From an uncultured Chlamydiae bacterium (lineage in GTDB: Bacteria > Chlamydiota > Chlamydiia > Chlamydiales > JAJFMA01), in the NCBI GenBank assembly GCA_963713615.1, contig CAVQMM010000001.1:3712001-3776000 (forward strand): a DNA stretch of 64,000 nucleotides, given 5' to 3'. The notes under the pieces are model-generated. The model was given only the letters and a program-made list of their open reading frames with translations. It ran no database searches and had not been told where the DNA came from. How positions within the stretch are numbered: position 1 is the first letter of the stretch; each line of letters begins with the position of its first letter. The position numbers and the translations under genes were made by a program. Shown here one piece after another: positions 5,332 to 55,630 of the stretch.

Positions 5332-5800
5332 ATGTCCATTACTGTCCAGGTAATTGCAAAATTATTTGAGCCATTGAGGATCGATTCTTGGGGAAAAAGG
5401 GAACCTTTTTTGGCGAGAAGGCGATTCTGGAGAGCTCAAATTGCATGGCAGTGAAGAGATTGGCTTTTACCCCTTCCCAGGCCCGAAGGGTCGATATTGC
5501 CATAAGACGCCGGTTTACACACACCGTTTCTGCATACGTTTTATAGCAGCCCTACAGGCTGCGAAATCCCCTCCTGGTATATACCAGGGCGATGCCCTGG
5601 CCTGTTGCAATATCGACCCTTCGGGCCTGAGAAGGGAATGGCTCTCTTTTCATCGGCGTCCGATTTGACTAAATTGACTTCGAGAAATCGAACTTCTGCA
5701 ATTACCTCATAGTGTCCATTTCTGTCCATAAAGTCCATTTACTGCCAGTCGACAATGGACATTATGGACAGCAATGGACACTATTTATGGACATGTTAAA
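5332..5800. repeat. Nested palindromic repeat cluster: (G)AGGTAATTGCA...TGCAATTACCTC element (5348-5708) among GTCCAT/ATGGAC repeats
   Basis: Terminal inverted repeats, plus inner inverted CCCAGGCCCGAAGGGTCGATATTGC arms shared with 17315, 27149 and 38449. Confidence 0.85.
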
Positions 5801-5931
5801 ACAAGAAATTTAATCTTAAAAAATAGTTCTCACCGATTCTGGCAGGCGATATGGTAAAAAAGCCTTTAACATAGGTTCCTCTGGATTTTCATTGTGTTGC
5901 CCATTATGATTCGATGGCTTCCAGGGGCATT

Positions 5932-7062
5932 ATGTCTGACACACACGCAACGAGTAAAAAGATCATTATCAGTGCAGGGGGGACCGGCGGTCACCTGTTC
6001 CCTGCTTTGGCTTTGGCACAAGCGCTTCAGGGCGCGGCAGAATTGTTATTTGTGGGCGGTGGACTCGCCACAAATCCCTATTTTGATCGTGAATCCTTCC
6101 ATTTTAAAGAAATTCCCTGTGGGTCTTTTGTGAGTAAGAAGCCATGGCGTCTTGCTAAAGCGTTATGGAATATTTTTCGCGGAATCCGCCATAGCATTGC
6201 GTTATTTCGGCATTTGCGTCCTGATGTCGTTGTGGGTTTTGGCAGTTTTTATAGCTTTCCGCCTCTTGTTGCGGCACGACTGCTGCGCATTCCGATCGTT
6301 CTCTACGCTGCCGATGCCATTCCGGGACGGGTGGTTCGCCTAGTCGCTCCTTATGCTCACGTTACTGGAACACATTTTGCTCCTACAGCCGCCTTACTGA
6401 AGGGGATTTCCACACCTGTGGGCATGCCTCTACGCGAGACCCTCCGGGCAGACCGCAAGTCTGCTGCAGAAGCTCGAAACTACTTTGGTCTCGACCCTCA
6501 AACCCCCACTCTGCTAATCTTTGGCGGATCACAAGGGGCGCAACGGCTTAATGAATTAATTCTTGAGGGCCTTGAGGATCTTGCCTGCCAAGTCACTAGA
6601 CCCTGGCAGGTGCTGCATTTTACCGGTAACGAGGACGCTGTGATTGCTACGCGAACAAAGTATGAGAAACAGGGCGTCCGTGCATGCGTAAAAGGGTTTG
6701 AAGCGCGTATGGGTTTGGCGTGGTCTGCTGCCAGTTTGGTTGTTTGCCGCTCGGGTGCTGGCACCATCGCTGAAATACAGCAGTTTGAAGTCCCTGCGGT
6801 TTTAGTGCCCTACCCTTATGCGACCGATGCCCATCAAGACCACAATGCCGATATTCTTGTCGCATGCCAGGGGGCAATCAAGTTGTCGCAGCCGACCCTT
6901 GAAGCTTCGGTGTTGGCAGCGCAACTAGCGCGACTTTTAAACGATGATGGGGGGGGCTTGACTCATATGCACCAAGCCCTGGCATTGGCCCAGCAGAATG
7001 TCGTAAAGCAAACTTTAGCAGGTTTAGTTTGGGAAACTCTAAAAAATACGAAGGCATCATGA
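5932..7062 (+). CDS. murG: Undecaprenyldiphospho-muramoylpentapeptide GlcNAc transferase
   Basis: GGTGGHLFP, GGSQGA, RSGAGT and HQDHNA motifs. Confidence 0.96.
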   Translation: MSDTHATSKKIIISAGGTGGHLFPALALAQALQGAAELLFVGGGLATNPYFDRESFHFKEIPCGSFVSKKPWRLAKALWNIFRGIRHSIALFRHLRPDVVVGFGSFYSFPPLVAARLLRIPIVLYAADAIPGRVVRLVAPYAHVTGTHFAPTAALLKGISTPVGMPLRETLRADRKSAAEARNYFGLDPQTPTLLIFGGSQGAQRLNELILEGLEDLACQVTRPWQVLHFTGNEDAVIATRTKYEKQGVRACVKGFEARMGLAWSAASLVVCRSGAGTIAEIQQFEVPAVLVPYPYATDAHQDHNADILVACQGAIKLSQPTLEASVLAAQLARLLNDDGGGLTHMHQALALAQQNVVKQTLAGLVWETLKNTKAS

Positions 7063-9470: not shown

Positions 9471-9476
9471 CTAAGG

Positions 9477-10352: not shown

Positions 10353-10456
10353 CGCAAAGAGAAGAAGGAGGAGGAGAGGGTTGAGGAGAGGAGTTAGGAA
10401 TTTTCACCGCCGAGGCGCCGAGACACCGAGATAGGAGAGAGAGGATTAGGAAAGAG
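10346..10456 (+). repeat. Left arm of a ~110-bp inverted repeat (family A: TTTTCACCGCCGAGGCGCCGAGACACCGAGATAGGAGAG)
   Basis: Near-perfect reverse complement of 14431-14550. Confidence 0.92.
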
Positions 10457-10659
10457 GAGGAGAGAATGTCCCGTCTGTGGGGCCTTGGGCAAGCCCTATC
10501 TAAGGGCATCTTGAAGCCACATTGAAGAGCCTAGGATCTTCATAGAAACGCATATCGCAGAGCACGACCTTTCATTGGAACAATAGAGGGCTGTCACCAA
10601 CGTTCTCTGGTCAATCCCTAGAAAATCGACCTAAGTTTGCTTTTATTTAATGGATTTCG

Positions 10660-10727
10660 TATAATGTGACTATGGATCGGACATTTCCGGTCGGCTTTAA
10701 GCCTCGGTTTATCCGGGGCTTTCTGCT
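10660..10727 (-). ncRNA. Putative DUF3800-associated RNA motif
   Basis: Directly after the DUF3800 stop the minus strand reads AGCAGAAAGCCCCGGATAAACCGAGGCTTAAAGCCGACCGGAAATGTCCGATCCA, forming two hairpins. Structured RNA motifs associated with DUF3800 genes are known. Confidence 0.6.
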
Positions 10728-11480
10728 TTATGGAACCTTTGGAAATATTTTTAGGCCGTACCCGTCTTTTTTTCCATTCCTACCAAGGATCTTCTTCTCC
10801 AAGATTTGGAAACTGCGATTTTCTTGCGAGGAATCGATCACATATCTTCCAATTGGATGGGCCACGAGATCGGCGATTTGCAGACCACAGCTATTGGTTT
10901 TTTTATTGGCCAGGATAATTTCAAATGGAAGACGTCTACTATGCCAGTTGCCACTGTCGACAATGCGTCTAAAGGCTAGCTCAAGGTCCTTATCTTCACT
11001 TGCTCCTCTTTGTTCAACAATAATGTTGGTTGCATGCTCAACTCCACTCTGATCTTTCAGGTAGGAGTAGGCTCTCTCAAGGCAGAATTTAAGAGCGGTT
11101 TCATAGGGACTATGTGGCTGGCTATACTTCTCCTTAAGACGCCTTTTGTCGATGACTGTGGCAATAATTGAAAATGGCAGTTCTTCCATTAATTGATTCA
11201 ATCGAGAGAAGAACCTTTCCCGAAGCTCCTCTGATACCCTTAGAAAGCCAAAGTCTTTTTCAGGTCTTCTAATCTCTCTATTGTGCAAAATTGCTAAATC
11301 GTGCCCCCAGAAATCAAATTTGAACTGGTTGACCATAGGGAGTACAATCCCGGTGTAGTCCGATTTTTTAAAGATGCAGAATGCAAGTACAAATACTGGA
11401 TGTTGTTCGTCAACTGATGTTAGGGAATGGTCTCCGCTTTCATCCACATATATGATATACTCACCAAAACCGTTCGACAT
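10728..11480 (-). CDS. DUF3800 domain protein
   Basis: YVDESGDH, LHNREIR and GLQIADLVA motifs, and a C-terminal GYGLKIFP. Confidence 0.88.
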   Translation of the reverse strand: MSNGFGEYIIYVDESGDHSLTSVDEQHPVFVLAFCIFKKSDYTGIVLPMVNQFKFDFWGHDLAILHNREIRRPEKDFGFLRVSEELRERFFSRLNQLMEELPFSIIATVIDKRRLKEKYSQPHSPYETALKFCLERAYSYLKDQSGVEHATNIIVEQRGASEDKDLELAFRRIVDSGNWHSRRLPFEIILANKKTNSCGLQIADLVAHPIGRYVIDSSQENRSFQILEKKILGRNGKKDGYGLKIFPKVP

Positions 11481-11592
11481 CCCCAGTATCCCAATAATTT
11501 TTAGAGTTTGGATAGCCTTTATACGCGAACGCAGGACCTAATCCAAGCAAAAAAACTTCAGCTCTATACGATTCTGAACTGACCATGAAGCC

Positions 11593-12831
11593 CAGGGAAA
11601 TTGCATGAAGAAATGATTTGACTATTTTTCAAATTGTTGCGACTACTTCTCCTTTTCATCAGGGAGATGTATAATGTCACAACAACATGCAGTCAGAGAA
11701 ACTTCTATCATGCTCGCGTTTTCAATCCTACCAGATCCTCGTAAGGCAAGAAACCATGCCTACAGTGTCTCCGAGATCGTATCGATCGCCATCCTCGCTA
11801 TACTTTGCGGGGCTGATGATTGGGTAGAGGTTAGCTTATGGTCTGAGTCTAATCTTGAATGGTTACACGAGCTTCAAATGTGTTCTGATGGTGTCCCTTC
11901 GCATGACACTTTCTCGCGCTTTTTCCGCTTTGTCAACCCACAGGCGTTTGAGCGGTGTTTTATTAACTGGACTCAGCATATTGCCAAAACGATAGGTGGC
12001 ATCATCGCTTTGGACGGCAAAACCTTATGCAACTCTTCCGATACGACAAATGATGTAAGAGCCATTCATATCGTGAGTGCATTTTCAGCGGAAAATCAAC
12101 TTGTTCTAGGGCAGCTTGCAACAGAGCTAAAATCCAATGAAATCACTGCTTTTCCCTTGCTTCTTGCCATGCTCGATATTAGGGGTGCTACAATTACAGT
12201 GGATGCCGGAGGATGTCATAGGCCACTTGTTAAGCAGATCGTGGAGCAAGGAGGAGACTACGTGATAGGTCTAAAAGGGAATCAAGGACATCTACATGCT
12301 GAGGCTCAAAACTTTTTTGAGCAAGTGGTTGAAGGTCTACCGGAAGCCAGTGGTTGTGACTTTTTTGTGAGCGAAGAAAAGTCGCGAGGACGAGTTGAGA
12401 AACGAGAAGTTTGGGTATGTGAAGATCTTGAGTGGCTACCACAAAAAACAGAATGGACAGGTTTAAGGAGTCTTGCCGCAGTTAGGAGTACAAGAACAAT
12501 TAAGGGTGTAACTTCAACAGAAACACGGTTTTACATATCCAGCCTCTCGTCCGATGCGAGGAAAATGGCCCATGCGATACGCTCTCATTGGACAATTGAG
12601 AACCAGTTGCACTGGCAGCTAGATGTATCCTATGCAGAGGATGGATGCAAAGTAAGAAAAGATAATGGGGCGGAAAATTTTTCCGTGCTTCGACGGGCCA
12701 CGCTAAATATTTTAAAGGCAGATAAAAAGACAAAGGCAGGGATTAAAAATCGCCGTTCGAAAGCAGGGTGGAACCGTGGCTACTTATTGGGGTTGCTTGG
12801 CGTAAACTAAATTCTTCATGCAATTTCCCTG
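11593..12831 (+). mobile_element. ISAs1-family insertion sequence
   Basis: 20-bp perfect TIRs CAGGGAAATTGCATGAAGAA / TTCTTCATGCAATTTCCCTG. No target duplication seen. Confidence 0.92.
11674..12810 (+). CDS. ISAs1-family transposase
   Basis: PSHDTF, IALDGKTL, KSNEITA and RSHWTIENQLHWQLDV motifs. Confidence 0.95.
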   Translation: MSQQHAVRETSIMLAFSILPDPRKARNHAYSVSEIVSIAILAILCGADDWVEVSLWSESNLEWLHELQMCSDGVPSHDTFSRFFRFVNPQAFERCFINWTQHIAKTIGGIIALDGKTLCNSSDTTNDVRAIHIVSAFSAENQLVLGQLATELKSNEITAFPLLLAMLDIRGATITVDAGGCHRPLVKQIVEQGGDYVIGLKGNQGHLHAEAQNFFEQVVEGLPEASGCDFFVSEEKSRGRVEKREVWVCEDLEWLPQKTEWTGLRSLAAVRSTRTIKGVTSTETRFYISSLSSDARKMAHAIRSHWTIENQLHWQLDVSYAEDGCKVRKDNGAENFSVLRRATLNILKADKKTKAGIKNRRSKAGWNRGYLLGLLGVN

Positions 12832-12892
12832 ATCTGGTGGGAGACCAAATTTCCGGTGCAGGACTAGGGGTGTTTAAGATTGTTTTAAGATT

Positions 12893-13357
12893 TTGGTCTT
12901 AATTACTTTTTTTCCAATGCTTGTTTGCGCAGGCGAAATGATGCCCAACGAGCTCAACGCAGTCGAAGAATTACCTATAGATACAAGAAGACAGATTTTT
13001 ATACATGAAACAATAAGAGATTACAAGCCAAGCAATCACTCCAATGTAGCAACTGCTATTTCAAATAGTTGCTTGACTGAGCCTGAGCGAAAGGAACTGC
13101 TCTTATCTCTTGAGAAACAAAGTAAACTCCTATATGAAATGACTACCAATGTGTTGTTTCCGTTGCTCCATAGATCAATTCCTTCTAATTACGTCCTGAA
13201 TGAAATAACCAGCTTAGAAAAAAGTGGAAAAATTGAAGTTGGGATAACTGAGTTTATATCTAATGCTATTCATGCAGGTTTTAGTTTAGATGGTTCTCTC
13301 GAATATCTTAGAGAACAAATTAAGGAAGAGCGAGAAAATAAAAAAAGTAAACAATAA
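12893..13357 (+). CDS. Hypothetical protein, possibly exported
   Basis: 154-aa AT-rich ORF with a hydrophobic N-terminus. Confidence 0.55.
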   Translation: MVLITFFPMLVCAGEMMPNELNAVEELPIDTRRQIFIHETIRDYKPSNHSNVATAISNSCLTEPERKELLLSLEKQSKLLYEMTTNVLFPLLHRSIPSNYVLNEITSLEKSGKIEVGITEFISNAIHAGFSLDGSLEYLREQIKEERENKKSKQ

Positions 13358-13632
13358 AAACATGAAAGAATCTCCGAAAGACTTTGTTATGCGAGGTTCT
13401 GGTAGGCTTTTTGTGCATAGGGCCTTTTTTACATTTTCTCAGCTTCGATTTTCGGCAAAACTCAGATCTTCATGAATTTTGTGTTCCCCCATCGGCCATC
13501 AAATCAAAAATCCGAAAAAACACTCTTTTTCTTTGAGAAACTCGCTAACTGAAACGGCATCTTTCCGATGACTATACAGCTCTAATTCTAAGAATAATTA
13601 TTCATGGTCTGATCTGGCTGCCATAGAACTCC

Positions 13633-14430
13633 TTAATAATAACTTAAACCTGAAAAGTCCCCGTAAAGCGGATGCTGCGGCTCGTGGAATGAGGCCATCT
13701 GCTTTCGATACAATTCCTCATCTTCCGCCTGGGTTGTGGCTCTTCTTAAACTCATCACCAGGTACCTAAAAGCGTCACTTCCGTTTGAGAAATGATCGTA
13801 CCTAGGATGGTCACGCCATACACCTAAAGTTTCGTTCCATTCTTTCCGATAGTTTTCCAGAGCTCGGATTCCCTTTTCGCACTTCACCTCATCAAACCAG
13901 CAACGATTTAGCAAGTTTCTCACGGCGTCTATACCTTCTTGCAACCCAAGCCTTGGCAAAACTGCGAATTCAAGCCCAAGATTCCTAGCAGTCTGCACAC
14001 GTGTCAAGCCAGAGCCTAGCTCGTGGCTGCTGGCATCATGCGGAGCAAAAACCCTCTCCGTGACGTATGGTTTCCCTTTGATAACCTTTATATAGTGTGC
14101 CAGCGGCTCCCCTGAGTTTTCGTAATAGTCGATCAATCGCAACTCTGCCCCTAGCTTCTGATACCACCATATCGCCATAGCATCGTTAAAGCCCAAATCC
14201 ATAGCGACGAAGACAGGTAAATTCTCATCATGCGGAACATTTCCGATGCGTCTTTCTACACGTGCCTTGGTCATGTATTTGCTGTAATAATTCCCCTCAA
14301 GGTTAGCTTGGAATGCCTCTTCTGGCGTGCTAGGATACTCCCTTAGCATATCGTCCCCTTGGGTCTTATACTTCGTGGCATACCAGCCCATTTGTGTCGG
14401 AGAAATTGTGATACCATAGCTTTCTTGCAG
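13633..14430 (-). pseudogene. Phage terminase large subunit, C-terminal nuclease portion (5'-truncated)
   Basis: REYPSTPEEAF, AMDLGFNDAMAIWW, PHDA and SDAFRYL motifs. The frame continues upstream (LQESYGITISPTQ) until it meets the repeat arm at 14431. No ATPase domain is present. Confidence 0.8.
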
Positions 14431-14550
14431 CTCTTTCCTAATCCCTCTCTCTCCTATCTCGGTGTCTCGGCGCCTCGGCGGTGAAAATTCCTAACTCCTC
14501 TCCTCAACCCTCTCCTCCTCCTTCTTCTCTTTGCGCCTTTGCGTTAAAAA
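14431..14550 (-). repeat. Right arm of the family A inverted repeat
   Basis: Reverse complement of 10346-10456. Confidence 0.92.
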
Positions 14551-17227: not shown

Positions 17228-17821
17228 TTTTTAACGCAAAGGCGCAAAAGAGAGCTCACGTTTGCGTCACACAATCATTTTGAATAGTTTTCTTCGTTTT
17301 GTAAATGTCCATAGGAGGTAATTGCAGAAGTCCGATTTCCCGAAGTCAATTTCCTGAAAATCGGACGCCGGTGAAGAGAGAGTCATTCCCTTCCCAGGCC
17401 CGAAGGGTCGATATTGCAACAGGCCATGGCATCGCCATGGTATATGCCAAAACGGTTTTAGCAGCCTGTAGGGCTGCCATAAAGCGCATGCATAAATGGT
17501 GTTTGTAAACTGGCGTCTTGTAGCAGTCCTTCAGACTGCGAAATCCCTTCCTGGCATATACCATAGCGATGCCATGGCCTATTGCAATATCGACCCTTCG
17601 GGCCTGGGAAGGGAATGGCTCTCTCTTCACCAGCATCCGATTTTCAGGAAATTGACTTCGGGAAATCGGACTTCTGCAATTACCTCCTATGGACAACATG
17701 GACATTAAGCCCAAAGTGCTTGTTAGGTTGAGGCCTATGGGGCGATGACGAATTGGACAATCAAAAAAAACATCTTCTTTTTTCCTAATCCTCCTAGATC
17801 CGTGTGCATCCGTGTTACTCC
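17228..17821. repeat. Nested palindromic cluster with a ~370-bp inverted-repeat element (17315-17686)
   Basis: Long arms starting GAGGTAATTGCAGAAGTCCG, flanked by TGTCCATAG/CTATGGACA. AACGCAAAGGCGCAAA and ATCCGTGTGCATCCGTGTT motifs lie at the outer edges. Confidence 0.9.
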
Positions 17822-18330
17822 TATTCCTGTCTCCTAGCCCCAATATTCGCAGAGCCGTGGCTGATGTTTAGGCGGTCACCAACCTTGACGCCATGCCTCT
17901 CAAACCACCCTGCATTCATTTCCAAGGCGTACGATACAGCAAAAGAACTACGCACTTCGTGCTGTTGAAAAAAGCGCACTACAGGATCATAAGGAGGGAG
18001 TCGATTCAATGCAGACACGTCTTTGATTGGTGCTAAGGCCATCATCTTGTCTGGATAGGCTTTGAGTTGATGGATCTCACGAATGACCCCATTGGCATCC
18101 AAATAAGCCAATGACAGGTCTATAAAGGTGTTGAGCATCCAGAAAGCCACTCGCCGAGGTGGGTGAAATTTGAACAACATCCCATGATTTTCCGGTAATG
18201 TACGACGTTGCATTAGGCCCCAGGCCATTTCATCAGGACTAACGGCATGTTCAAGGGTGATCTCGACGGCAGGGCTGGGCCATGCCAAGAAACAGAGGAA
18301 AGATGCGGTAAGGATTCGTACTAACAGCAC
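17821..18330 (-). CDS. DUF192 family protein
   Basis: GLMQR, GMLF, FWMLNT and YALEMNAGWF motifs. Confidence 0.9.
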   Translation of the reverse strand: MLLVRILTASFLCFLAWPSPAVEITLEHAVSPDEMAWGLMQRRTLPENHGMLFKFHPPRRVAFWMLNTFIDLSLAYLDANGVIREIHQLKAYPDKMMALAPIKDVSALNRLPPYDPVVRFFQQHEVRSSFAVSYALEMNAGWFERHGVKVGDRLNISHGSANIGARRQE

Positions 18331-21638: not shown

Positions 21639-22255
21639 GAGAGAGAGGAAGGAGGAGAGGATAGGAGATAGGATTTTTACCGCCGAGACGCCGAGACACC
21701 GAGATAGGAAAGAGGGGAAAGGGAAGAGAGAGGATGAGGAGGAACATCAGGCACCGAGCGCTAAATCCTTTTGCAAGGGTGCCCCCTTTCAAAAGGACTT
21801 AGCGCTCGGTCCTGATGTTCCACTGCTCCCTATAGACCAGGGGTAGAGATTTTTCCTTTTCAACCTCTAGTTGAAGGCCTTATTCACCTTTGCGGTCAGT
21901 TTTCGGTCGACTGCAAAAGGATCGTCTGTCGCGTTTTGCTCCTCAGACATAGCTGGCGCTATGCCCTCGTCACAAACCACGACATCCGACCTTTTTCGTC
22001 CGACCGAAATTCTGACCGTAAAGGTGAACAAGGCCCCTTCCTGGTAACGACATCCTCTCGAAAGCTATCTACCATTCTCACTCGCCAATATTTTTTTACA
22101 AATTCTAATAGATAGAAAGGCAAAAATCAACAATGATGTTCCTCCTCATCCTCTCTTTCCTATCTCGGTGTCTCGGCGGTAAAAATTCCTAAATCCTCTC
22201 CTCTTTCTCCCTTTTTCCTTACTCTCCTTCTCTCTTTTTCTCTTTCCGACTTCTC
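21637..22255. repeat. Family A inverted arms enclosing an ~80-bp hairpin (21741-21821) and a 160-bp MITE
   Basis: ACCGCCGAGACGCCGAGACACCGAGATAGG near 21679, with its complement near 22159-22190. Confidence 0.85.
21876..22035. mobile_element. 160-bp MITE copy 1 (no target duplication)
   Basis: TIRs GGCCTTATTCACCTTTGCGGTCAG / CTGACCGTAAAGGTGAACAAGGCC. Near-identical to three other copies. Confidence 0.9.
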
Positions 22256-25294: not shown

Positions 25295-26685
25295 GCTTTA
25301 TGTCACTACTTGAACTCATTAACTACTGGGTCTGGGGAGCTCCCTTTCAACTCCTCTTCTTTGGCTTAGCCATCTACCTCACCATAGCCCTTAGGGGGCT
25401 CCAGTTCCGCTACCTGCTGAAAGCCTTCAAATTGGCCTTCGGTAGGCAAAATGCCCAAGCAAAAGGGGATATCAGCCACTATCAATCTCTGATGACAGCC
25501 TTGGCAGCCACTGTAGGGATTGGCAACATCGCTGGCGTCGCCACAGCGGTCACCGCCGGAGGGCCTGGGGCGTTATTTTGGATGTGGGTGACGGCTCTTT
25601 TGGGGATGATCACCAAATACGCTGAATCTATCTTAGCAGTAAAATACCGCATTGTTGACGAGCGTGGTGAAATGGCTGGCGGTCCGATGTATTTTATCGA
25701 ACGAGGACTCGGCTGGCGTTGGCTAGCGGTAGCTTTTGCCGGTTTTGGTTGTTTAGTGGCTCTTGGCGGTGGCAATATGCTTCAGGCTAACTCCATAGCC
25801 CAGGTGATAGAACGCTTATTTGAGATCAATCCTTGGTATACTGGATTCGTTCTGGCAGCGCTTACAGGCTTGACAGTACTTGGAGGCATCAGGTCCATTG
25901 GCACCGTTGCAGGTTTCGCCGTACCCTTCATGGCCTTGTCATATATGTTTGGTGGGCTTGTCATCCTAGTGATGAACTTTACCGATATCCCAGCAGCTAT
26001 GTGGGCTATTCTGCAAGATGCCTTCAGTGGTATGGCCGTTGCTGGTGGGTTTCTTGGCTTTGCTACACAGAATGCTGTCAGGGTCGGTCTTGCACGTGGG
26101 ATTATGACTAGCGAAGCTGGTCTAGGCACTGCCAGCATCGCCTCTGCAGCTGCTAAGACTGATAGTGCCGGCGAGCAAGGGCTTGTTTCCATGACGGGCA
26201 GCTTTTTGACGACGGTCATCATGTGCAGTGTGACGGCACTGGTCCTGCAAGTCACCGATGCTGTGAATATGGTTGACGGCATGGGAATGCGTCTTAATGG
26301 TGCGGCCATGACCGTAGCAGCTTTTCAGACGGTCTTTTCATCTTGGGGTGCTTATATGGTATCCATGGCCCTGGTATTCTTCGGATTTACTACAATTATC
26401 GGTTATGCCTACTACGCGGAGAAGTGCCTCGAATACTTATTTGGCGCGCGTGCAGTTCCGTTTTATAGGGTGATCTTCACGGCTTTTGTTGTGATTGGTT
26501 GTGTCTTGAAGCTGGAGATTGTTTGGTTAGTATCGGACATCGCCAACGGTCTGATGGCCTATCCAAACCTGATCGGGCTGATCTTTCTATCGGGCGTTGT
26601 TGTTCAAGAAACACGTGCCTTTCTCCCAACTCTCGACACCAAGAAAAAACCTCCTGTCGCTGTAGCCCCTGAAACTCTTTCTTAA
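25291..26685 (+). CDS. dagA: Alanine/glycine:cation symporter (AGCS family), tandem paralogue
   Basis: GIGNIAGVA, GGPGALFWMW and SEAGLG motifs. ATGA overlap with the upstream paralogue. Confidence 0.9.
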   Translation: MSFMSLLELINYWVWGAPFQLLFFGLAIYLTIALRGLQFRYLLKAFKLAFGRQNAQAKGDISHYQSLMTALAATVGIGNIAGVATAVTAGGPGALFWMWVTALLGMITKYAESILAVKYRIVDERGEMAGGPMYFIERGLGWRWLAVAFAGFGCLVALGGGNMLQANSIAQVIERLFEINPWYTGFVLAALTGLTVLGGIRSIGTVAGFAVPFMALSYMFGGLVILVMNFTDIPAAMWAILQDAFSGMAVAGGFLGFATQNAVRVGLARGIMTSEAGLGTASIASAAAKTDSAGEQGLVSMTGSFLTTVIMCSVTALVLQVTDAVNMVDGMGMRLNGAAMTVAAFQTVFSSWGAYMVSMALVFFGFTTIIGYAYYAEKCLEYLFGARAVPFYRVIFTAFVVIGCVLKLEIVWLVSDIANGLMAYPNLIGLIFLSGVVVQETRAFLPTLDTKKKPPVAVAPETLS

Positions 26686-26816
26686 TGCAAAGGTGCAAAG
26701 AAGAGCTTACGTAGATGGACTATCGGCGGAACAGACCTGTTTTCCTGTTTGTTTCGCCTGTTATGCTTTTACTAAAGATGTAAGGCACGGCTTATACCTC
26801 TCATGTCTCATGTGTT

Positions 26817-27116
26817 TTAAAGAAAAATTTTGTAATCAGTTTCAAAGAGAACCGCAAATTTTTTTGCCATAGCTTTGCCAATTGAACGCTTGCCATGTTC
26901 CATTTTGGAAATATTGGCCTGATTTACGCCAGTCTGTTTAGCAAGCTCTATCTGTGTCATACCTTCGCGCAAACGGAAACCGCGAAGAGCTGCGCCCGAT
27001 TCAGAAAACTTTTCAATCAAATCTCCAAAAGCTGAACGCCAGTCAACTGAGCCTTTGTGTTCTGCACCAGTTGCAACGTTTTTTTCAGTAGGGAGCCTTT
27101 TCGTGTGTGCCCGCAT
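26817..27116 (-). CDS. XRE-family HTH protein (HigA-like antitoxin or regulator)
   Basis: LRGFRLREGMTQIELAKQTGVNQANISKMEHGKRSIG. GAGGT RBS before the ATG at 27116. Confidence 0.85.
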   Translation of the reverse strand: MRAHTKRLPTEKNVATGAEHKGSVDWRSAFGDLIEKFSESGAALRGFRLREGMTQIELAKQTGVNQANISKMEHGKRSIGKAMAKKFAVLFETDYKIFL

Positions 27117-27148
27117 AATATACCTCAATCAATCTCCCTGGTCATATA

Positions 27149-27897
27149 GAGGTAATTGCAGAAGTCCGATTCTCCGAAGTCAATTTCCTGAAAATCGGAT
27201 GCCGGTGAAGAGAGAGTCATTCCCTTCCCAGGCCCGAAGGGTCGATATTGCAACAGGCCATGGCATCGCCATGGTATATGCCAAAACGGTTTTAGCAGTC
27301 TGTAGGGCTGCCATAAAGCGCATGCATAAATGTTTGTAAACTGGCGTCTTGTAGCAGTCCTTCAGACTGCGAAATCCCTTCCTGGCATATACCATGGCGA
27401 TGCCACATAGGCCTCAACCTAACAGGTCTTTTGAGCTTATATCTCAATGACTTAGGACTTCACAATCGTATCTCGGCGCGCAGCGCTTTGGAGTGCGGTC
27501 GCTTGCGACCGCTTTTCGTTCCTTGGGACGGCAATGCTAAACGGCATTGTATGGATTCGTCGAAGGCTGCATGTACTAACTATTTTACCCTTAGGGAATT
27601 ATAGTGATGCCGTTGCACACGACCGTCGCAAGGAACCCAAAGCGGTCGCAAGCGACCGCACTCCAAAGCGCTGCGCGCCGAGATACGATTGTTAGGCTTA
27701 GGTTGAGGCCTATGTGGCGATGCCCTGGCCTGTTGCAATATAGACCCTTCGGGCCTGGGAAGGGAGAAAAGCCTGTCTTTCCAGACTGGATAGTGCCATA
27801 CCACTTAAGCTCTCTAGAATCGCCTTCTCACAAAAAAAGGTAACCTTTTTTCCCGAGAATCGATTCTCAAGGGCTCAAATAATTTTGCAATTACCTC
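27149..27897. mobile_element. Composite non-autonomous element bounded by GAGGTAATTGCA TIRs, containing REP-like hairpins and a REPIN-like unit (27462-27692)
   Basis: TATA flanks both ends. Inner arms are ATAGGCCTCAACCTAA and GGAGTGCGGTCGCTTGCGACCGCTTT with their complements. Confidence 0.8.
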
Positions 27898-29438: not shown

Positions 29439-29598
29439 GGCCTTATTCACCTTTGCGGTCAGTTTTCGGTCGACTGCAAAAGGATCGTCTGTCGCGTTTT
29501 GCTCCTCGGACATAGCTGGCGCTATGCCCTCGTCACAAACCACGACATCCGACCTTTTTCGTCCGACCGAAATTCTGACCGTAAAGGTGAACAAGGCC
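29439..29598. mobile_element. 160-bp MITE copy 2
   Basis: 8-bp TSD GATTTTTC at 29431-29438 and 29599-29606. Confidence 0.93.
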
Positions 29599-30439: not shown

Positions 30440-30580
30440 GAGGATAGGAATTAGGATTTTTACCGCCGAGACACCGAGATAGGGGAGAGAGGATTTAGGA
30501 AAGAATATCCCGTTTGTGGAGCCTAGGACATTCTCTCCTAAATCCTCTCTCTCCTTAGAATGACACCAGATCGAATAGCC

Positions 30581-30740
30581 GGCCTTATTCACCTTTGCGG
30601 TCAGTTTTCGGTCGACTGCAAAAGGATCGTCTGTCGCGTTTTGCTCCTCGGACATAGCTGGCGCTATGCCCTCGTCACAAACCACGACATCCGACCTTTT
30701 TCGTCCGACCGAAATTCTGACCGTAAAGGTGAACAAGGCC
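30581..30740. mobile_element. 160-bp MITE copy 3
   Basis: 8-bp TSD GAATAGCC at 30573-30580 and 30741-30748. Confidence 0.93.
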
Positions 30741-30748
30741 GAATAGCC

Positions 30749-30880
30749 GAATACTGAAAACGTCTTTTTGTGAACTTCTATTCCTAGAAATACGGTATTT
30801 TCATATGATGCTGTCATGAACAGTCCTCCTTCTCGTTGTTGTTCGTTACTTCGCGAGAATACGGACTGTTCTTTTTTTTG
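30749..30880 (-). pseudogene. IS110-family transposase N-terminal remnant with its upstream non-coding end
   Basis: MTASYENTVFLGIEVHKKTFSV resembles the IS110 GIDVHKK motif. AGGAGG RBS upstream, and the frame is interrupted by the MITE. Confidence 0.6.
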
Positions 30881-30978
30881 CTACTCTCTTTCCCTCAGCA
30901 TAGCAACTCGGTGTCTCGGCGCCTCGGCGGTAAAAATCCTAATTCCTATCCTCCTAGATCCGTGCATATGTTACTACA

Positions 30979-38357: not shown

Positions 38358-38706
38358 CCCTGAGGCAAAAAAAGAAAGTTCAACGCAAAGATGCAAAGAA
38401 AAGCTCACGCGGATGGACTAAAGGACCAAGGGACATAAAAGACATAAAGAGGTAATTGCAGAAGTCCGGTTTCCGAAGTCAATTTCCTGAAACTCGACGG
38501 CTGGCGAAGAGAGATAAGCCATTCCCTTCCCAGGCCCGAAGGGTCGATATTGCAACAGGCCAGGGCATCGCCCCATAGGCCTCAACCTAACAGGTCTTTT
38601 GAGCTTATATCTCAATGACTTAGGACTTCACAATCGTATCTCGGCGCGCAGCGCTTTGGAGTGCGGTCGCTTGCGACGTAAGCGTCAATTGAGGCCATCT
38701 GGCGAT

Positions 38707-40251
38707 TTATTCGGCAGTGGGGGCTGATGAGGTGGATGAGGCCTTTGCTTGTCGCCTGGCGGCAGCCCAAGCGTCGGGCAGAAGCTCGTGAAGTTTTTGA
38801 GAATTATGGGCTGGCAGGCGCCTCATCACATCCTCTAGGTATTCGTGGGGGTTGACTCCTATCGCGCGGCAGGTCTGTACCAGGCTTAGCAGTACGGCGG
38901 AAGCTTCCCCACCCTCCTCGCTTCCAATAAACATCCAGTTCTTGCGGCCAATAGCTAGAGGGCGTATCGCTCGCTCCGCTACATTGTTGTCGAGACGCGC
39001 AAATGCATGTTGGGTGTAGTTTTTCAGATGGGGAATTAAGCTGCAATAATAGCCTAGAGCCTCCCTTAGATTCGATTTGGGAAGAGCCTTGCCATTAACC
39101 AGCCGGTCCTTGATGCGTGCAGTCAGCTCATCTATTATTGGAGCTTCTTTCTCTTGTCTTATCCGCAGACGTTCCTCTGGAGAACGTTCCCAAGCAACTC
39201 TCTCTAACATAAATAGATATTTTATCTTGCGCAGTACCCAGCTAACAAATTTTTTATCGCCACCTACAGCGTCGAAAAACTTGCGCCGAATGTGACTCCA
39301 GCATGGACACCAAGTGAATTGCTTCTTATTAGCCAGTGCTTCATAGGCTCCATATTTATCCGAATGGACAACACCTTTATATCCAGCTAGTATTTCCACA
39401 GCATGCTTGTGGCAGCGGTCCGTGCGAAAATGATAGACTCGATAAGGCGGATTTTTTTCCTGCCCTCCAACGATCACCCACATAAAAGCCTGGTGCACCT
39501 TTCCCTTACCAGGGACAAGCATGTCCACAGGAGATTCGTCCACAAAAACATTGTTGCTGCTGAGCACGCGAGCAATCATTTCTTCATATAGCGCCTTTAA
39601 GGCATATCCACAGCGCATTACCCACTTGCAAAGTATTTGTCGGCTGATGAGAATGCCCTCGCGAGCTAAGATTTCCGATTGACGAAATAAAGGAAGGTGA
39701 TCGGCGAATTTTTTCACGATCACACTGGCTAAAAGACTTTCATCGGCTTGACAGCGAGGAAAAATGCTATCTGGTAAATCTGCGATAAAAACGCCCTCTT
39801 CACTATGTGCTCTACATGCATACTTGGGACGTACTAGCTCCTTGACGTAGTAGCTACCTGGCGTATGCGCTATTTTGTGAGTGACTTCTTCGCCAATTTT
39901 GACGAGGGCTTCACCCGTTGTAGGGCAAACTTTTTGATCCTCTGGCAAATCTAAAATACAGCGTTGAACGGGAATATTGTCTGGAAGCGTAATTTTATCT
40001 TTGCCATTGCGCCCCTGCTTAACCCGTCGATGAGCAGGCACATTTATTGTCTCTTTTTGCTCTTCGGAACCAAGATTTTCGAAACCTTCCAGGTAGAGTT
40101 GTTGACCGCCATCGTCGACTACTTTTTCCGAACGTTTCCCAAAAATCTGACGCCTAAACCATTCAAGCTGCTCCTTGAGAAAGCTATTCTCATTTCGCAG
40201 GGAATAAATTTCCGATTGAAGATGTTCTAGTGATAGTGTTGAGGTTTCCAT
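38707..40251 (-). CDS. tnpC: IS66 transposase TnpC
   Basis: FGKRSEK, KFADHLPLFRQ, VDESP, CWSHIRRKF and DNNVAERAIR motifs. Confidence 0.95.
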   Translation of the reverse strand: METSTLSLEHLQSEIYSLRNENSFLKEQLEWFRRQIFGKRSEKVVDDGGQQLYLEGFENLGSEEQKETINVPAHRRVKQGRNGKDKITLPDNIPVQRCILDLPEDQKVCPTTGEALVKIGEEVTHKIAHTPGSYYVKELVRPKYACRAHSEEGVFIADLPDSIFPRCQADESLLASVIVKKFADHLPLFRQSEILAREGILISRQILCKWVMRCGYALKALYEEMIARVLSSNNVFVDESPVDMLVPGKGKVHQAFMWVIVGGQEKNPPYRVYHFRTDRCHKHAVEILAGYKGVVHSDKYGAYEALANKKQFTWCPCWSHIRRKFFDAVGGDKKFVSWVLRKIKYLFMLERVAWERSPEERLRIRQEKEAPIIDELTARIKDRLVNGKALPKSNLREALGYYCSLIPHLKNYTQHAFARLDNNVAERAIRPLAIGRKNWMFIGSEEGGEASAVLLSLVQTCRAIGVNPHEYLEDVMRRLPAHNSQKLHELLPDAWAAARRQAKASSTSSAPTAE

Positions 40252-40327
40252 ATGCTCTAAATCATATCACAGACCCCCTCTATTATCAAGTATTTTATCT
40301 AATAAAATACACATTGTTTTTAGGATT

Positions 40328-40915
40328 TTAGGCTCGATGACTACTCTCCAACAACATTAGAAATTCTCGACGATCGATAGCGGAATCTGGAATGCTTCCA
40401 TTGCGAAAACTTCCTTTTTCAAGTCGCTTGTACCAGACGGCATGACCATTACCATCCCAGTAAAAGACCTTCACTAGATTTCTACGACGATTTAAAAAAA
40501 CGAAGTAGGCCCCGCAGGTAAATTCGCCCGAGAACGAACTGTCAACAAGATTGCTCAAGCACTCAAATCCCTTTCGCATATCGATCGGCTCTTGATAGAG
40601 AAAGACACCCTTGTTTTTCTGATATGACGACCTCAGAGTTTTGCTCGCAGACTTTAGGGTTAGATAGACGCTCTTCTGATCAAGCGAAAGCTTGAGCTCG
40701 GGCAGGGTAATGTCTATCCAACCCGTCGAGGAAATGTGGTCGGGCGGGCTAACTTTAAAGCGTTGGTACCAGTACAAGAGCTGCTGGTAGCTTATATTGT
40801 TCTCTAGGCACCACCTGCGGCCACTCTGACCGCTCGCCATCCATTGGTCTATGCGTCGAGCCCACTCAGAACGCTTCCTTTTGAAATCCATTAGTATCTC
40901 CATGGTTAGGGTCAT
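40328..40915 (-). CDS. tnpB: IS66 accessory protein, apparent TnpA-TnpB fusion
   Basis: N-terminal TnpA-like HTH (W..SGQSGRRWC...ISYQQLLYW) is in frame with TnpB motifs DMRKGF, FVFLNRRR and WDGNG...YKRLEKG. Confidence 0.85.
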   Translation of the reverse strand: MTLTMEILMDFKRKRSEWARRIDQWMASGQSGRRWCLENNISYQQLLYWYQRFKVSPPDHISSTGWIDITLPELKLSLDQKSVYLTLKSASKTLRSSYQKNKGVFLYQEPIDMRKGFECLSNLVDSSFSGEFTCGAYFVFLNRRRNLVKVFYWDGNGHAVWYKRLEKGSFRNGSIPDSAIDRREFLMLLESSHRA

Positions 40916-41348
40916 GGAGAAAACTTAGAACCTCGCGGAATTACGAAAAAGATGGCTTCAATTGACGCTTACCTTGCGACCGCTTTTCGTTCCTTGGGAC
41001 GGCAATGCTAAACGGCATTGTATGGATTCGTCGAAGGCTGCATGTACTAACTATTTTACCCTTAGGGAATTATAGTGATGCCGTTGCACACGACCGTCGC
41101 AAGGAACCCAAAGCGGTCGCAAGCGACCGCACTCCAAAGCGCTGCGCGCCGAGATACGATTGTTAGGCTTAGGTTGATGCCTATGGGGCATCGCCCTGGT
41201 ATATGCCAGGAAGGGATTTCGCAGTCTGAAAGACTGCCATAAGGCGCTTGCATAAATAGCGTGTGAATACAGACGTCTTGTAGCAGTCCTTTATGTCTTT
41301 TATGTCCCTTTGGTCCTTTAGTCCATCCGCGTTAAAAGTTTTCACGAA

Positions 41349-48350: not shown

Positions 48351-48386
48351 TTAGGAGTAACACGGATGCATCCGTGTTACTCCTAA
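48351..48386. repeat. Perfect 36-bp palindrome (collapsed AACACGGATGC-family element)
   Basis: TTAGGAGTAACACGGATGCATCCGTGTTACTCCTAA. The half-site matches the sequence at ~17803-17823. Confidence 0.85.
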
Positions 48387-51631: not shown

Positions 51632-52050
51632 TTTTAACGCAAAGGAGGGATTTCCTTTCGTTCATCACAATATTAGCAGTTGAATTAGGATTTTTACCAC
51701 AGTAGTCCATTTTTTGAAGTTCGTGGGGCTTTTTAGGATTTTACCACAGAGAACACAGAGACGCTGAGATAGGAGAGAGAGGAGAAAATGACCCGTTTAT
51801 GGAGCCTTAGACAAAATTCACTTTAAGGTCCCACAAACGGGTCAGGTGCTCGATCTAACTTTTTTGTTAAATTGAGGACCGGTCTATTCTTATGCTGTAC
51901 AAAATCCTGTCTGAGGCCTCTACAAGGTTGTATTTTCACGGAACCCTCAGACAGGATTTTGTACAGCATAAGAAATGGACATTATCTCCTCTCTCTGCTA
52001 TCGGTGTCTCTGTGTTCTCAGTGGTAAAATCCTAAAAATCCCTACGAACC
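51632..52050. repeat. Nested palindromic cluster (ACCACAGAGAACACAGAG arms around two TG...CA hairpin units)
   Basis: Arms at ~51732-51790 and ~51981-52046. Inner hairpins at 51789-51844 and ~51887-51981. Confidence 0.85.
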
Positions 52051-52262
52051 TTCCTCCTCTTTTCGTTGGCATGCCGCTTGCATTTTCATCTTATTATAAA
52101 CGGAGGTTGTCAAAAAAAAACTTTTCAGTATTGTGAGTGTTGGACCGATAGAATAAGAGGGAAGGCTCTGGCGCCGAGATGTGAAAACAGTCTTGGCAGC
52201 CGCCTTTGTTGTCTTTCGCGGTAGGTTCAATTTTTGAATATTACGGGGGATAGGGGGGTCTT

Positions 52263-52661: not shown

Positions 52662-52711
52662 CGAATAAAGGTGAGTTTCGCGTCACAATGACAGCGAGGG
52701 CATCATAAAGT

Positions 52712-53704: not shown

Positions 53705-53774
53705 CTGAAATAATTGAATGTCGTTTATAGTGTAGATGGGGGAGAATCCTACCTATGCCCAGCCGTGGAGATTT

Positions 53775-54122
53775 ATGCGTGATGAAGTGCAAATTGAACA
53801 AGAGAAGATGGGTGATGTTTTGCTTTTGCGAATCATTGGACGTCTAGATGCCCTCTCGTCAGAGGCTACTGAAAAAAAGGTGTTAGCGATCATTAAGCAG
53901 GGAGAGCATAATGATGTTCTCCTCGATTTCACAGAGGTTAACTACCTAAGTAGTGCGGGCATGAGGATGCTATTGGCTATCTTTAAGCATCTTCGCGAAG
54001 CTTCTGGTAAGCTTGCGGTATGTTCTGTCGACGATGGCGTGATGGATGTCCTCAAAATGTCTGGTTTTGACGAAGTATTTGATGTTTTTGCTACACAAGA
54101 TGAAGCCCTCAAAAGATTTTAG
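53775..54122 (+). CDS. rsbV: STAS anti-sigma factor antagonist
   Basis: GRLDA and YLSSAGMRML motifs. Confidence 0.9.
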   Translation: MRDEVQIEQEKMGDVLLLRIIGRLDALSSEATEKKVLAIIKQGEHNDVLLDFTEVNYLSSAGMRMLLAIFKHLREASGKLAVCSVDDGVMDVLKMSGFDEVFDVFATQDEALKRF

Positions 54123-54137
54123 AGGTTTGTCAAGGAT

Positions 54138-55181
54138 GTGGCAGATGTGAGTAGTGATATTTCGCAGCAAACATCTAGCGCTGACCTCACACTGTTTAAC
54201 CTTTGTGTAGAGGCACGTACGAATCCAGAAGAGACCGAAAAACGCTCAAAGTCCAAAGTGATTGTTATCGCAGGGCCTACGGCTTGCGGAAAGTCTGACT
54301 TTGCCCTCATGCTCGCCAAAGCTGTGGGTGGTGAGATCATTTCCGGCGATGCTATGCAGATCTACCGGGGTCTGGATATTGGTACTGCCAAGCCCTCCAA
54401 GGAGGAACAGCTTGTTGTGCCGCATCATTTAGTTGATGTTTGCGATGTCCATCAGCCCTTTACCGCTTTCGATTTTCATCGCGATGCTTCGCACATTGCT
54501 CAGGCAATTATCGATCGCAAGGGCATTCCTATCGTGGTGGGAGGCTCAGGCTTCTACCTGCACACACTTATCTATGGCCCACCCGCTGGGCCACCACCAT
54601 CACCTGAAGTGCGCGCGATCCTAGAAGCTGAAATGGCTCTGCTAGGACCGCAAGTGATGTATCAGAGGCTTTTCGAGCTTGATCCTATCTATGCTGAGGG
54701 CATCACACATAACGATAAGCATAAGATCGTTAGGGCCTTGGAGATCATAGCCATCACTGGCAAAAGGGTTAGTAGTATTCCCTGGAGAGGGCGCAGTGTC
54801 CAGACAAAATTTGATTTTCGCTGCTGGTTTTTGCATCGGCCCAAGGACATTTTATATCGACGTATTGAGAAGCGTTGCCACAAGATGATTGAGATGGGGC
54901 TTCTTGAGGAAGTCGAAAAGATGGATCAGTTGGGGCTGCGCCAAAATACGGCAGCTAGCCAGGCCATAGGATATCGTCAAACCCTGGAATATTTGGACTC
55001 TCCACGCACGGCTCAGGACTATCAGCATTTTGTGGAGAGCTTTCTTCAGGCTAGTCGTCATTATGCTAAGAGGCAATTTACTTGGTTTAGGAAAGAGGCT
55101 ATGTATCGTTGGCTGGATGTCGATGTCCTAGATTTCGAGAATGTTATGGAGCTCGTAATGAAAGACTATGAGCTTCTGTAG
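54138..55181 (+). CDS. miaA: tRNA dimethylallyltransferase
   Basis: GPTACGKS, QIYRGLDIGTAK and YAKRQFTWF motifs. Confidence 0.96.
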   Translation: MADVSSDISQQTSSADLTLFNLCVEARTNPEETEKRSKSKVIVIAGPTACGKSDFALMLAKAVGGEIISGDAMQIYRGLDIGTAKPSKEEQLVVPHHLVDVCDVHQPFTAFDFHRDASHIAQAIIDRKGIPIVVGGSGFYLHTLIYGPPAGPPPSPEVRAILEAEMALLGPQVMYQRLFELDPIYAEGITHNDKHKIVRALEIIAITGKRVSSIPWRGRSVQTKFDFRCWFLHRPKDILYRRIEKRCHKMIEMGLLEEVEKMDQLGLRQNTAASQAIGYRQTLEYLDSPRTAQDYQHFVESFLQASRHYAKRQFTWFRKEAMYRWLDVDVLDFENVMELVMKDYELL

Positions 55182-55630
55182 GTAGAAGAAAGAAGAGGAA
55201 GGAGAGGAAAGAGGAATTAGGAGTTTTTACCGCCGAGATAGGAGAGAGAGGATTAGAAGAGAATGTTCAGTTACTGGTGGCTCTGGACAAAATCCAGTCT
55301 AAGGGTTCCCGCAGGAATACGATTCTAAAGAGGCCTTAGACAGGACTTTGTCCAGAGCCACCAGTAACCGAACAGGTCCTCAATTTAACAAAAAATGAGC
55401 ACCTGTGCCGTTTGTGGGGCCTTGGGCAAAATTTTGCCTAAGGGCTTAACCAAAACGATAATCTCTCAAGAGGCCCTTAGATAGAATTTTGCCCAAGGCC
55501 CCACAAACGGCACATCTCTCCTAATCCTCTCTCTCTCCTATCTCGGTGTCTCGGCGCCTCGGCGGTGAAAAATCCTAATTCCTCTTTCCTCTCCTTCCTC
55601 TTCCTCCTCCTCTCTCTTTTCCTCACCCTC
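55182..55630. repeat. Family A arms enclosing two ~110-bp TGT...ACA hairpin units, between convergent genes
   Basis: Hairpins at 55264-55374 and 55403-55514. The linker GGTCCTCAATTTAACAAAAAA is shared, inverted, with 51860-51881. Confidence 0.9.

What the first reader, a model, noticed from the sequence alone, without database searches (positions are those of the whole stretch)
5332..55630. Russian-doll system of at least eight palindromic miniature element families
Seen: clusters at 5.3-5.8, 10.3/14.5, 17.2-17.8, 21.6-22.3, 26.7-27.9, 30.4-31.0, 38.4-41.3, 51.6-52.0 and 55.2-55.6 kb are built from recurring arms in a consistent order. One series runs AACGCAAAGGCGCAAAG > ATGGAC(TAAAGGAC) > GAGGTAATTGCA > CCCAGGCCCGAAGGGTCG > ATAGGCCTCAACCTAA > GGAGTGCGGTCGCTTGCGACC. 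The other runs purine-rich ACCGCCGAG arms > TG...CA hairpins. From memory, similar motifs flank RAYT, GxxExxY and four-helix-bundle genes in PVC and Bacteroidota genomes, but none of those genes is in this window. Inference: unrelated non-autonomous elements target each other's centres, forming BIME-like mosaics in a phylum whose pathogenic members are repeat-poor.
Basis: partly seen in the sequence, partly recalled or inferred. Interest (0 to 1): 0.8.

Follow-up and report, generated by a model that had tools for sequence, protein, structure and literature searches.

The report
Nested mobile hairpins in environmental chlamydia
This genome, likely an environmental chlamydia, carries hundreds of small mirror-image DNA elements stacked five or more deep in a fixed order, most likely because successive waves of jumping elements each found their short landing sequence in the arms of an older one; the oldest layers match the repeats that bracket two small genes of unknown function, which are untested candidates for new mobilising proteins.

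Summary
The clusters are real and the order holds genome-wide (C>D 93:0, D>E1 62:0, E1>F 79:0, F>IS66 12:0, G>K 30:0; reversals only E2/F and N/F). But the elements do not target each other's centres. Two tiers are fixed passengers (REP-like D inside MITE C, REP-like F inside MITE E). The others are repeated insertions into short target sites in the host's arms: an IS231-like IS4 MITE (11-bp duplication, 70 of 83), an IS5-like MITE whose target matches the 9-base period of the B arrays, IS66 and IS1634. Outer families are old (63-81% alike), inner ones young (99.5-99.9%), so the nest is a time record. The outer arms bracket single-copy GxxExxY nuclease-like and four-helix-bundle genes here; GxxExxY genes have inverted flanks in 22 of 31 loci against 0 of 42 neighbours. 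No paper on that link turned up in my searches, but this scan noted it before in other genomes. IS insertion into REPs is known. Verdict: new variant of known kinds, with one open, testable lead.

The parts
5347..5708 (.). C MITE (first base of left end changed) holding a shortened D (5469-5638); B arrays on both sides to about 5795
10353..10510 (+). Left A arm, left G arm and the start of a K hairpin
10728..14391 (.). About 3.9 kb between the A/G arms: DUF3800 gene, ISAs1 (11593-12831), an unknown ORF and a phage-family gene (phrog_2472)
14431..14550 (-). Right G arm and right A arm; 14431-14535 is 99% inverted-identical to 10353-10456
17233..17314 (+). A arm, then a B unit
17315..17686 (.). 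Symmetric C copy (the same short body on both sides) holding D (17386-17615); flanks are mirror images
17687..17830 (-). B units, a lone right end of E (to 17739) and a right J arm
21675..22184 (.). G element holding hairpin H (about 21745-21820) and an I MITE (21876-22035)
26685..27148 (.). A arm, B unit and an HTH gene (26817-27128, minus strand) lying inside the B arms
27149..27897 (.). C MITE with a 4-bp duplication, followed by B units
27220..27766 (.). D, REP-like palindrome, passenger of C
27406..27714 (.). E1 MITE (309 bp) in the right arm of D; 11-bp duplication with one mismatch
27462..27692 (.). F, REP-like palindrome, passenger of E1
29439..29598 (.). Free-standing I MITE with 8-bp duplication
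30458..30935 (.). G element holding an I MITE (30581-30740)
38382..38573 (+). A arm, B array, left end of C (38449) and left arm of D
38574..41185 (.). E1 with perfect 11-bp duplication, holding F (38630-41163)
38678..40972 (-). Complete IS66 (transposase 38707-40251, accessory ORF 40328-40915) in the left arm of F, 8-bp duplication
41186..41335 (-). Rest of D (right part deleted, no right end of C) and closing B array
48353..48384 (.). Minimal J hairpin
51719..52049 (.). G variant holding diverged K-type hairpins
55184..55611 (.). G element holding two K hairpins (55264-55374, 55404-55514)
60622..60781 (.). Free-standing I MITE with 8-bp duplication

Best explanation
The clusters are layered insertions that likely record successive bursts of transposition: old hairpin families (A, B, G, J) whose arms bracket single-copy GxxExxY and four-helix-bundle genes form the outer layer, and younger insertion sequences and MITEs sit at short target sites in the arms of the layer outside them. 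Step 1 (inferred): the GxxExxY and four-helix cassettes seeded gene-less copies of their own arms around the genome, without target duplication. Step 2 (target shown, enzyme inferred): MITE C, IS5-like, inserts between two three-base half-sites nine bases apart, a spacing that the B arrays supply over and over. Step 3 (shown): C carries one captured REP-like palindrome D at a fixed junction, so D was multiplied by C. Step 4 (shown): the IS231-like IS4 MITE E1 inserted many times into an 11-base palindromic site in either arm of D; E1 carries one captured REP-like palindrome F. Step 5 (shown): IS66 and an IS1634 element inserted into the arms of F. The order is therefore set by age plus sequence preference and by hitch-hiking, not by recognition of hairpin centres.
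For: Order. Age gradient, median pairwise identity: A 0.63 (7 copies), J 0.73 (24), G with K 0.73 (12), free F 0.81 (66), C 0.95 (33), D 0.98 (44), F in E1 0.995 (66), E1 0.997 (66), IS66 0.999 (18). Passengers: D-C and F-E1 junctions are one per side; C and E MITEs in relatives carry other interiors (L097, L103, L105, L075). Repeated targeting by E1: 80 of 83 paired copies have D-arm flanks, all four arm-by-orientation classes occur (20, 18, 6, 5) and nine classes differ once the duplicated 11-mer is counted; 70 of 83 have a perfect 11-bp duplication. Full-length elements of about 1.5 kb with the same ends occur in six metagenome contigs, four tested and all four over the IS4 cut-off; two sit in D-like REP arms, and one of them plus two MITEs sit in G-like elements. 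The ends fit the IS231 subgroup pattern and its 10-12-bp duplication (PMC2266710 Table 1). C target: 43 of 109 pairs have a 4-bp duplication, with half-site bases conserved at 94-95%; 80 of 107 copies lie in B arrays, against 256 of 328 free intergenic consensus sites. IS66: 17 of 18 paired copies have F-arm flanks by my reading (12 of 18 by the bracket parse); IS1634: 5 of 5. Gene links: F brackets Y1 gene L006, D follows Y1 gene L003, G brackets GxxExxY L007, J brackets GxxExxY L008, B-type arrays bracket four-helix genes L009 and L010; the GxxExxY coding parts are single-copy while their arms hit 170-200 places. In other genomes: 22 of 31 against 0 of 42 and 16 of 600; 15 of 16 four-helix loci with three or more B words on one side; 35 of 41 genomes with four or more G-motif copies have the gene, against 31 of 159 others.
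Against: No full-length IS with C or E ends is in this assembly, so the transposases that moved them are not in hand, and no partner of C was found anywhere. 66 of 109 C pairs lack the duplication. E1's 11-base consensus has 208 of 486 free matches outside D, so the consensus alone does not explain its preference. Six genomes have four or more G-motif copies and no GxxExxY match, and 31 have the gene with fewer copies; 9 of 31 GxxExxY loci lack a scored inverted repeat. No A-linked gene is in this genome; the link rests on L029 and L048. No empty-versus-filled orthologous site was seen for G, J, A or B. Low identity in G, J and A may partly reflect fast change in low-complexity arms and not age. 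No activity was measured.
Confidence: 0.72

Rival explanations
1. GxxExxY and four-helix genes are cargo or regulated passengers between hairpin arms; the hairpins spread by another enzyme or by host recombination and repair. The inner layers stay as described.
For: G and A arms also bracket unrelated genes in single cases (an ATPase-like ORF at C1:3322562, a 210-aa ORF at C1:1863176, the 3.9-kb block at window 10728-14391). A four-helix bundle has no catalytic site known to me (recalled). Motif-rich genomes without the gene exist.
Against: The same gene families are bracketed across many host families, and protein clades go with arm types on a 32-row tree: L033/L034/L040, L035/L039 and L029/L048 each share a type of their own (kin share labels, no independent-pairs test run).
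Confidence: 0.35
2. Safe haven: elements insert with little preference and only those landing inside existing repeats survive selection.
For: C's share in B arrays (75%) equals that of free intergenic sites (78%) and exceeds that of all free sites (290 of 611, 47%), so selection against coding insertions likely contributes.
Against: The equally young I MITE is scattered, with 265 different junctions among 270 ends, so much intergenic room is tolerated; E1, IS66 and IS1634 hit the same few bases again and again.
Confidence: 0.1
3. One reading: each family recognises the loop or centre of another family's hairpin.
For: K lies near the centre of G in 26 of 39 pairs; a C-type MITE sits at the centre of a G-type element in L111; 5 of 109 C pairs have purely mirror 4-mers.
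Against: Offsets for D, E1, F, IS66 and IS1634 are all off-centre and fixed.
Confidence: 0.07
4. Assembly artefact from collapsed or chimeric repeats.
For: No public contig spans a whole nest with both unique flanks; no long reads were seen.
Against: Copies carry locus-specific target duplications. Contigs of four runs from four studies hold these repeats, and show the E-in-D and IS66-in-F junctions and the tandem C spacer in two or more runs each. Metagenome contig L128 holds D>E>F>IS66 at 99.5-99.9% (it may come from the same population).
Confidence: 0.02

Closest known systems
IS elements that target REP sequences (IS621, IS1594; Tobes and Pareja 2006, as reviewed in PMC3184786, passages; ISPpu9, search listing)
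   Same: IS66, IS1634, IS110 and the IS4 MITE insert at fixed sites in REP-like palindromes.
   Different: Here it is a chain of five or more tiers, and two REP-like units are multiplied as passengers of MITEs.
IS4 family, IS231 subgroup (PMC2266710, passages and Table 1)
   Same: End pattern, 11-bp duplication, site specificity; full-length IS4 elements with the same ends exist.
   Different: E is a 309-bp gene-less derivative, three quarters of it a captured REP-like palindrome; no full-length copy in this assembly.
REP/REPIN with RAYT (TnpA-REP) (PMC6006769, passages; PMC3733652, passages and section 7)
   Same: F and D flank Y1 HUH genes, have paired inverted arms and no target duplication; section 7 of PMC3733652 reports REPs inside other palindromes and mosaic regions in Neisseria.
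   Different: D's gene has the subclass 1.2 signature, for which the passages I saw describe no REPs. G, J, A and B have the REPIN layout but bracket a PD-(D/E)xK or four-helix gene, not a RAYT.
BIME and NIME mosaics (PMC3184786, passages)
   Same: Intergenic clusters made of several repeat families.
   Different: Nested insertions with target duplications, not alternating REP units with linkers.
ORF-bearing 23S rRNA intervening sequences (Pfam PF05635 name; the wider link comes from earlier scan notes)
   Same: Four-helix-bundle gene between inverted repeats.
   Different: L010 lies between protein-coding genes and L009 follows one; gene-less copies of the arms are spread over the chromosome.

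Membership tests
IS4 family, IS231 subgroup MITE (E) | End pattern of PMC2266710 Table 1 | tested here: met
   ends against Table 1
IS4 family, IS231 subgroup MITE (E) | 10-12-bp target duplication | tested here: met
   70 of 83 pairs, 11 bp
IS4 family, IS231 subgroup MITE (E) | Full-length IS4 with the same ends | tested here: met
   in metagenome contigs L127, L132, L133, L137; none in this genome
IS4 family, IS231 subgroup MITE (E) | YREK motif and subgroup placement of the transposase | not tested
   only the family model NF033592 was scored
IS5-family MITE (C) | Terminal inverted repeats and short target duplication | tested here: met
   4-bp duplication in 43 of 109 pairs; the IS5 label for such ends is recalled, from no call
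IS5-family MITE (C) | Cognate IS5 transposase between the same ends | tested here: inconclusive
   none in this genome or in 23 loci of relatives; a family search in five genomes was not completed
REPIN/RAYT (F) | Y1 HUH gene bracketed by the repeat; free dispersed copies; no duplication | tested here: met
   L006; 84 of 180 paired copies stand alone; L006 was not scored against the NCBIfam RAYT model
REPIN/RAYT (D) | Y1 HUH gene flanked by the repeat | tested here: met
   L003, one side only; D-like arms also beside L015 and L017 in relatives
REPIN/RAYT (D) | Copies dispersed by the Y1 enzyme itself | tested here: not met
   93 of 112 paired copies are passengers of C at one junction
Classical MITE (G, J, A, B) | Target duplication and sharp ends | tested here: not met
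   G: 0 of 66 with a direct repeat of 5 or more bases, ragged ends; J and A none evident; B not tested
Classical MITE (G, J, A, B) | DDE transposase between the same ends | tested here: not met
   the bracketed genes are GxxExxY and four-helix bundle
REPIN/RAYT (G, J, A, B) | Cognate RAYT gene | tested here: not met
   none of the six Y1 matches is bracketed by these arms
REPIN/RAYT (G, J, A, B) | Mobilisation in trans by the bracketed single-copy gene | not testable with these tools
   association only
BIME | Alternating REP units with conserved linkers; IHF or gyrase binding | tested here: not met
   layout is nested; protein binding not testable
23S rRNA intervening sequence | Location inside an rRNA gene | tested here: not met
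   gene context of L009 and L010; no RNA-family scan was completed

The most novel reading that the evidence does not exclude
GxxExxY nucleases and four-helix-bundle proteins are the mobilisers of a class of non-autonomous palindromic elements parallel to RAYT/REPIN but with different enzymes: each protein clade recognises its own short-period arm, spreads gene-less hairpins without target duplication, and these hairpins seed landing sites on which IS elements and MITEs build multi-tier nests.
Probability: 0.45. Interest if true: 0.8.

Novelty: new variant of a known kind. Interest (0 to 1): 0.52.

Why it matters
The nest gives a dated sequence of transposition bursts in one genome and shows how REP-like sequences can reach high copy number by riding on MITEs while supplying the target for the next element. 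It gives base-precise target rules for an IS5-like and an IS231-like element. Most of all, it ties two widespread protein families of unknown function to hundreds of gene-less hairpins, with matched gene-and-arm pairs (L007 with G, L008 with J, L009 and L010 with B) that can be tested directly. It also shows that this lineage can be repeat-rich (8.5% of the main contig in 16-mers with 8 or more copies), while the family of 1.0-1.4-Mb genomes in the same order has neither the gene (0 of 28) nor the G motif (0 of 29).

Tried and rejected
IS1595 as partner of I: no match; the partner is a DUF6399 gene. Full-length IS with C or E ends in this genome: none. K as an IS-type MITE: no target duplication, no partner gene; left unexplained. 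The C-D-E-F composite in 40 relatives: only 25-45-base matches in 7, so no empty-versus-filled comparison. The search for related loci with L008 gave 2 loci only. Solved relatives of GxxExxY L007 and four-helix L010 by sequence: nothing below E 0.07. Gene-orientation bias of the elements: mixed, no control beyond all gaps, not used. My recollection that the ProPhylo paper covers these repeats was wrong (PMC3226654, term search, 0 hits). Literature searches: GxxExxY, 3 papers hold the term and the 2 listed are on other subjects by title and abstract start, not read; four-helix bundle with inverted or palindromic repeats, 0 papers at three of five terms; searches listed nothing on this link or on such nests in chlamydiae. 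The library lacks most subscription journals and I opened no supplements. No structure model, fold search or RNA-family scan was obtained, so the fold of GxxExxY rests on its Pfam label and any RNA identity of the hairpins is open.
Full report
Setting. The window is G000:C1:3712001-3776000 of a 3.97-Mb, three-contig genome, 99.1% complete. A MurC-Ddl fusion at 7029-9470 (its chlamydial character is recalled) and an order that includes a family of 1.0-1.4-Mb genomes make an environmental chlamydia likely. 8.5% of the main contig lies in 16-mers with 8 or more copies (this includes IS copies, CRISPR repeats and a coding tandem repeat). Paired miniature elements up to 800 bases cover 135,333 bases, 3.4%.

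Observation. Every cluster is present. Labels: A to F for the first series, G and K for the second, plus I, J, N and others from de novo discovery. I paired left and right ends genome-wide with a stack rule. Ends were found by short patterns with mismatches, so some are false and many stay unpaired (for example G 223 ends and 69 pairs, A 66 ends and 10 pairs); B was scored by flank content and not bracketed. The order is strongly one-way: C>D 93:0, E1>F 79:0, D>E1 62:0, G>K 30:0, F>IS66 12:0, F>IS1634 5:0. Reversals: E2>F 6:3 and F>N 4:2. Eleven elements have four enclosing elements. At 38.4-41.3 kb the arms read A, B, C, D, E1, F, IS66.

What each tier is. C is a 430-base element with terminal inverted repeats. 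43 of 109 pairs have a 4-bp duplication; rebuilt targets show two G-(A/T)-C half-sites nine bases apart, with the G and C at 94-95%. B arrays have that period. 80 of 107 C copies lie in B arrays, the same share as free intergenic consensus sites (256 of 328) and more than all free sites (290 of 611). Sequence preference plus avoidance of genes therefore explains B>C. D, 230 bases, sits at one junction 71/130 bases from C's ends with no duplication: one capture, then amplification by C. D-like repeats follow the Y1 HUH gene L003 and flank related genes in two other genomes. E1, 309 bases, has an 11-bp duplication in 70 of 83 pairs and ends that fit the IS231 subgroup (PMC2266710, passages and Table 1). 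It inserts 52 bases from either end of D, in both orientations, duplicating whichever variant of the site is there, which implies at least four and likely nine or more separate insertions. A metagenome scan gave 35 loci; six hold full elements of 1.5-1.7 kb with these ends, the four tested pass the IS4 cut-off, and their targets include D-like REP arms and G-like elements. That IS231A prefers three G's, five free bases and three C's is recalled; many of these targets fit it. F, 231 bases, is a fixed passenger in E1 but also has 84 free paired copies and brackets the Y1 gene L006. IS66 and IS1634 go into F's arms. I, 160 bases with an 8-bp duplication in 97 of 114, is scattered and has a full-length partner in the genome; it serves as the internal control for untargeted insertion.

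The outer layer. G, J and A are long imperfect palindromes of variable length. G has ragged purine-rich ends and no duplication (0 of 66; control 8 of 330). Many J copies share a diverged central spacer and many G copies share K, so arms and interior were copied as a unit. G brackets GxxExxY L007, J brackets GxxExxY L008, and B-type arrays bracket four-helix genes L009 and L010. GxxExxY occurs in 66 of 200 scored genomes of the phylum. Of 32 loci (best-scoring ones, two from this genome, one from another phylum) one was left out at a contig edge; 22 of 31 have an inverted-repeat score of 15 or more across the gene, against 0 of 42 neighbouring ORFs and 16 of 600 random genes of this genome (L050 is also at an edge and counts as a miss). 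A-type arms lie beside GxxExxY in L029 and L048. Of 41 genomes with four or more copies of the G motif 35 have the gene; of the other 159, 31 do (kin are not independent, so I give no P value). The four-helix suffix family is in 12 of 200 genomes, and 15 of its 16 loci have three or more B words within 130 bases on one side (my count; no matched control beyond 1.7% of random sites with two words in 40 bases). On a 32-row tree several clades each share an arm type and mix host families, which suggests but does not show co-evolution and horizontal spread.

Age. Within-family identity rises inward: A 0.63, J 0.73, G 0.73, free F 0.81, C 0.95, D 0.98, E1 0.997, IS66 0.999. The nest reads as a stratigraphy.

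Artefact check. Contigs of four public runs from four studies hold the repeats at far higher depth than the unique DNA (95 against about 1 in X1) and show the E-in-D junction (X1, X3, X5), IS66 in F (X1, X2) and the tandem C spacer (X3, X5); short pieces of unique window genes match without differences, but no contig spans a nest with both flanks.

Mechanism and odds. Inner tiers: cut-and-paste or replicative DDE transposition in trans with target preference, plus passengers; shown by duplications and junction classes, about 0.85. Outer tier: I favour spreading by the bracketed genes, with GxxExxY, a PD-(D/E)xK family member by Pfam, nicking at its arms and host repair copying the hairpin; wholly inferred, about 0.45-0.5. 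Results against this reading are listed in the Against line and the first rival.

Prior knowledge. IS insertion into REPs, REPs inside other palindromes and repeat mosaics are in print (PMC3184786 passages; PMC3733652 passages and section 7). Y1 subclasses are from PMC6006769 (passages). I found no paper on GxxExxY or four-helix arms as dispersed elements, nor on such nests in chlamydiae (open-access library only). Earlier unchecked notes of this scan report the same gene-and-arm layout in other genomes; they are not independent support, and I had reached the link before reading them. This genome adds matched pairs, copy numbers, a co-occurrence count and the layered targeting.

Noticed in passing
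L011:800-2683 (G000:C1:1035799-1037682); window 21876-22035, 29439-29598, 30581-30740, 60622-60781: The only full-length partner of the I MITE encodes a 559-aa DUF6399 protein with no NCBIfam match, between I ends with an 8-bp duplication. With 114 MITE copies 99.4% alike, DUF6399 is likely a transposase family. MITE plus duplication is 168 bases, three of six frames are stop-free, and a copy sits in frame in an ISAs1 transposase gene.
   Followed up: partly
window 10353-14550: A and G arms, 99% inverted-identical, bracket 3.9 kb with a DUF3800 gene, ISAs1 and a phage-family gene that reads to me like a terminase fragment (recalled). Hairpin interiors may be capture sites for foreign DNA; an HTH gene lies inside B arms at 26817-27128.
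   Followed up: partly
G000:C1 near 476.5-479, 1173-1175, 2273-2277 and 2600-2603 kb: Tandem arrays of C with D and a short B spacer, period about 455-473 bases; the spacer joint is also in public contigs X3 and X5.
   Followed up: no
genome-wide: 66 of 109 C pairs lack the target duplication though most ends still abut a half-site, and 13 have the same kind of body on both sides; this suggests many rearrangements through these repeats.
   Followed up: no
L002, L003, L015: Y1 genes with the subclass 1.2 signature of PMC6006769 are flanked by long palindromes that are dispersed in the genome; the passages I saw describe no REPs for that subclass.
   Followed up: partly
L004, L005: Y1 genes with a DnaA-like C-terminal domain (scored for L004) bracketed by short inverted repeats of the TIRYT type, about 45 ends genome-wide.
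   Followed up: no
window 58235-60488: IS607-type element with a serine transposase and a 547-aa TnpB-like gene.
   Followed up: no
L013; G000:C1:1137409 and 1197430: An IS110 inserted in an arm of D, and ORFs that look like group II intron fragments (recalled) inside a C and a G element.
   Followed up: no
genome-wide: Two CRISPR-like repeat families with unique spacers (types I-F and I-C by recall), and further palindromic families (N, O, P, R) for which no bracketed gene was found.
   Followed up: no
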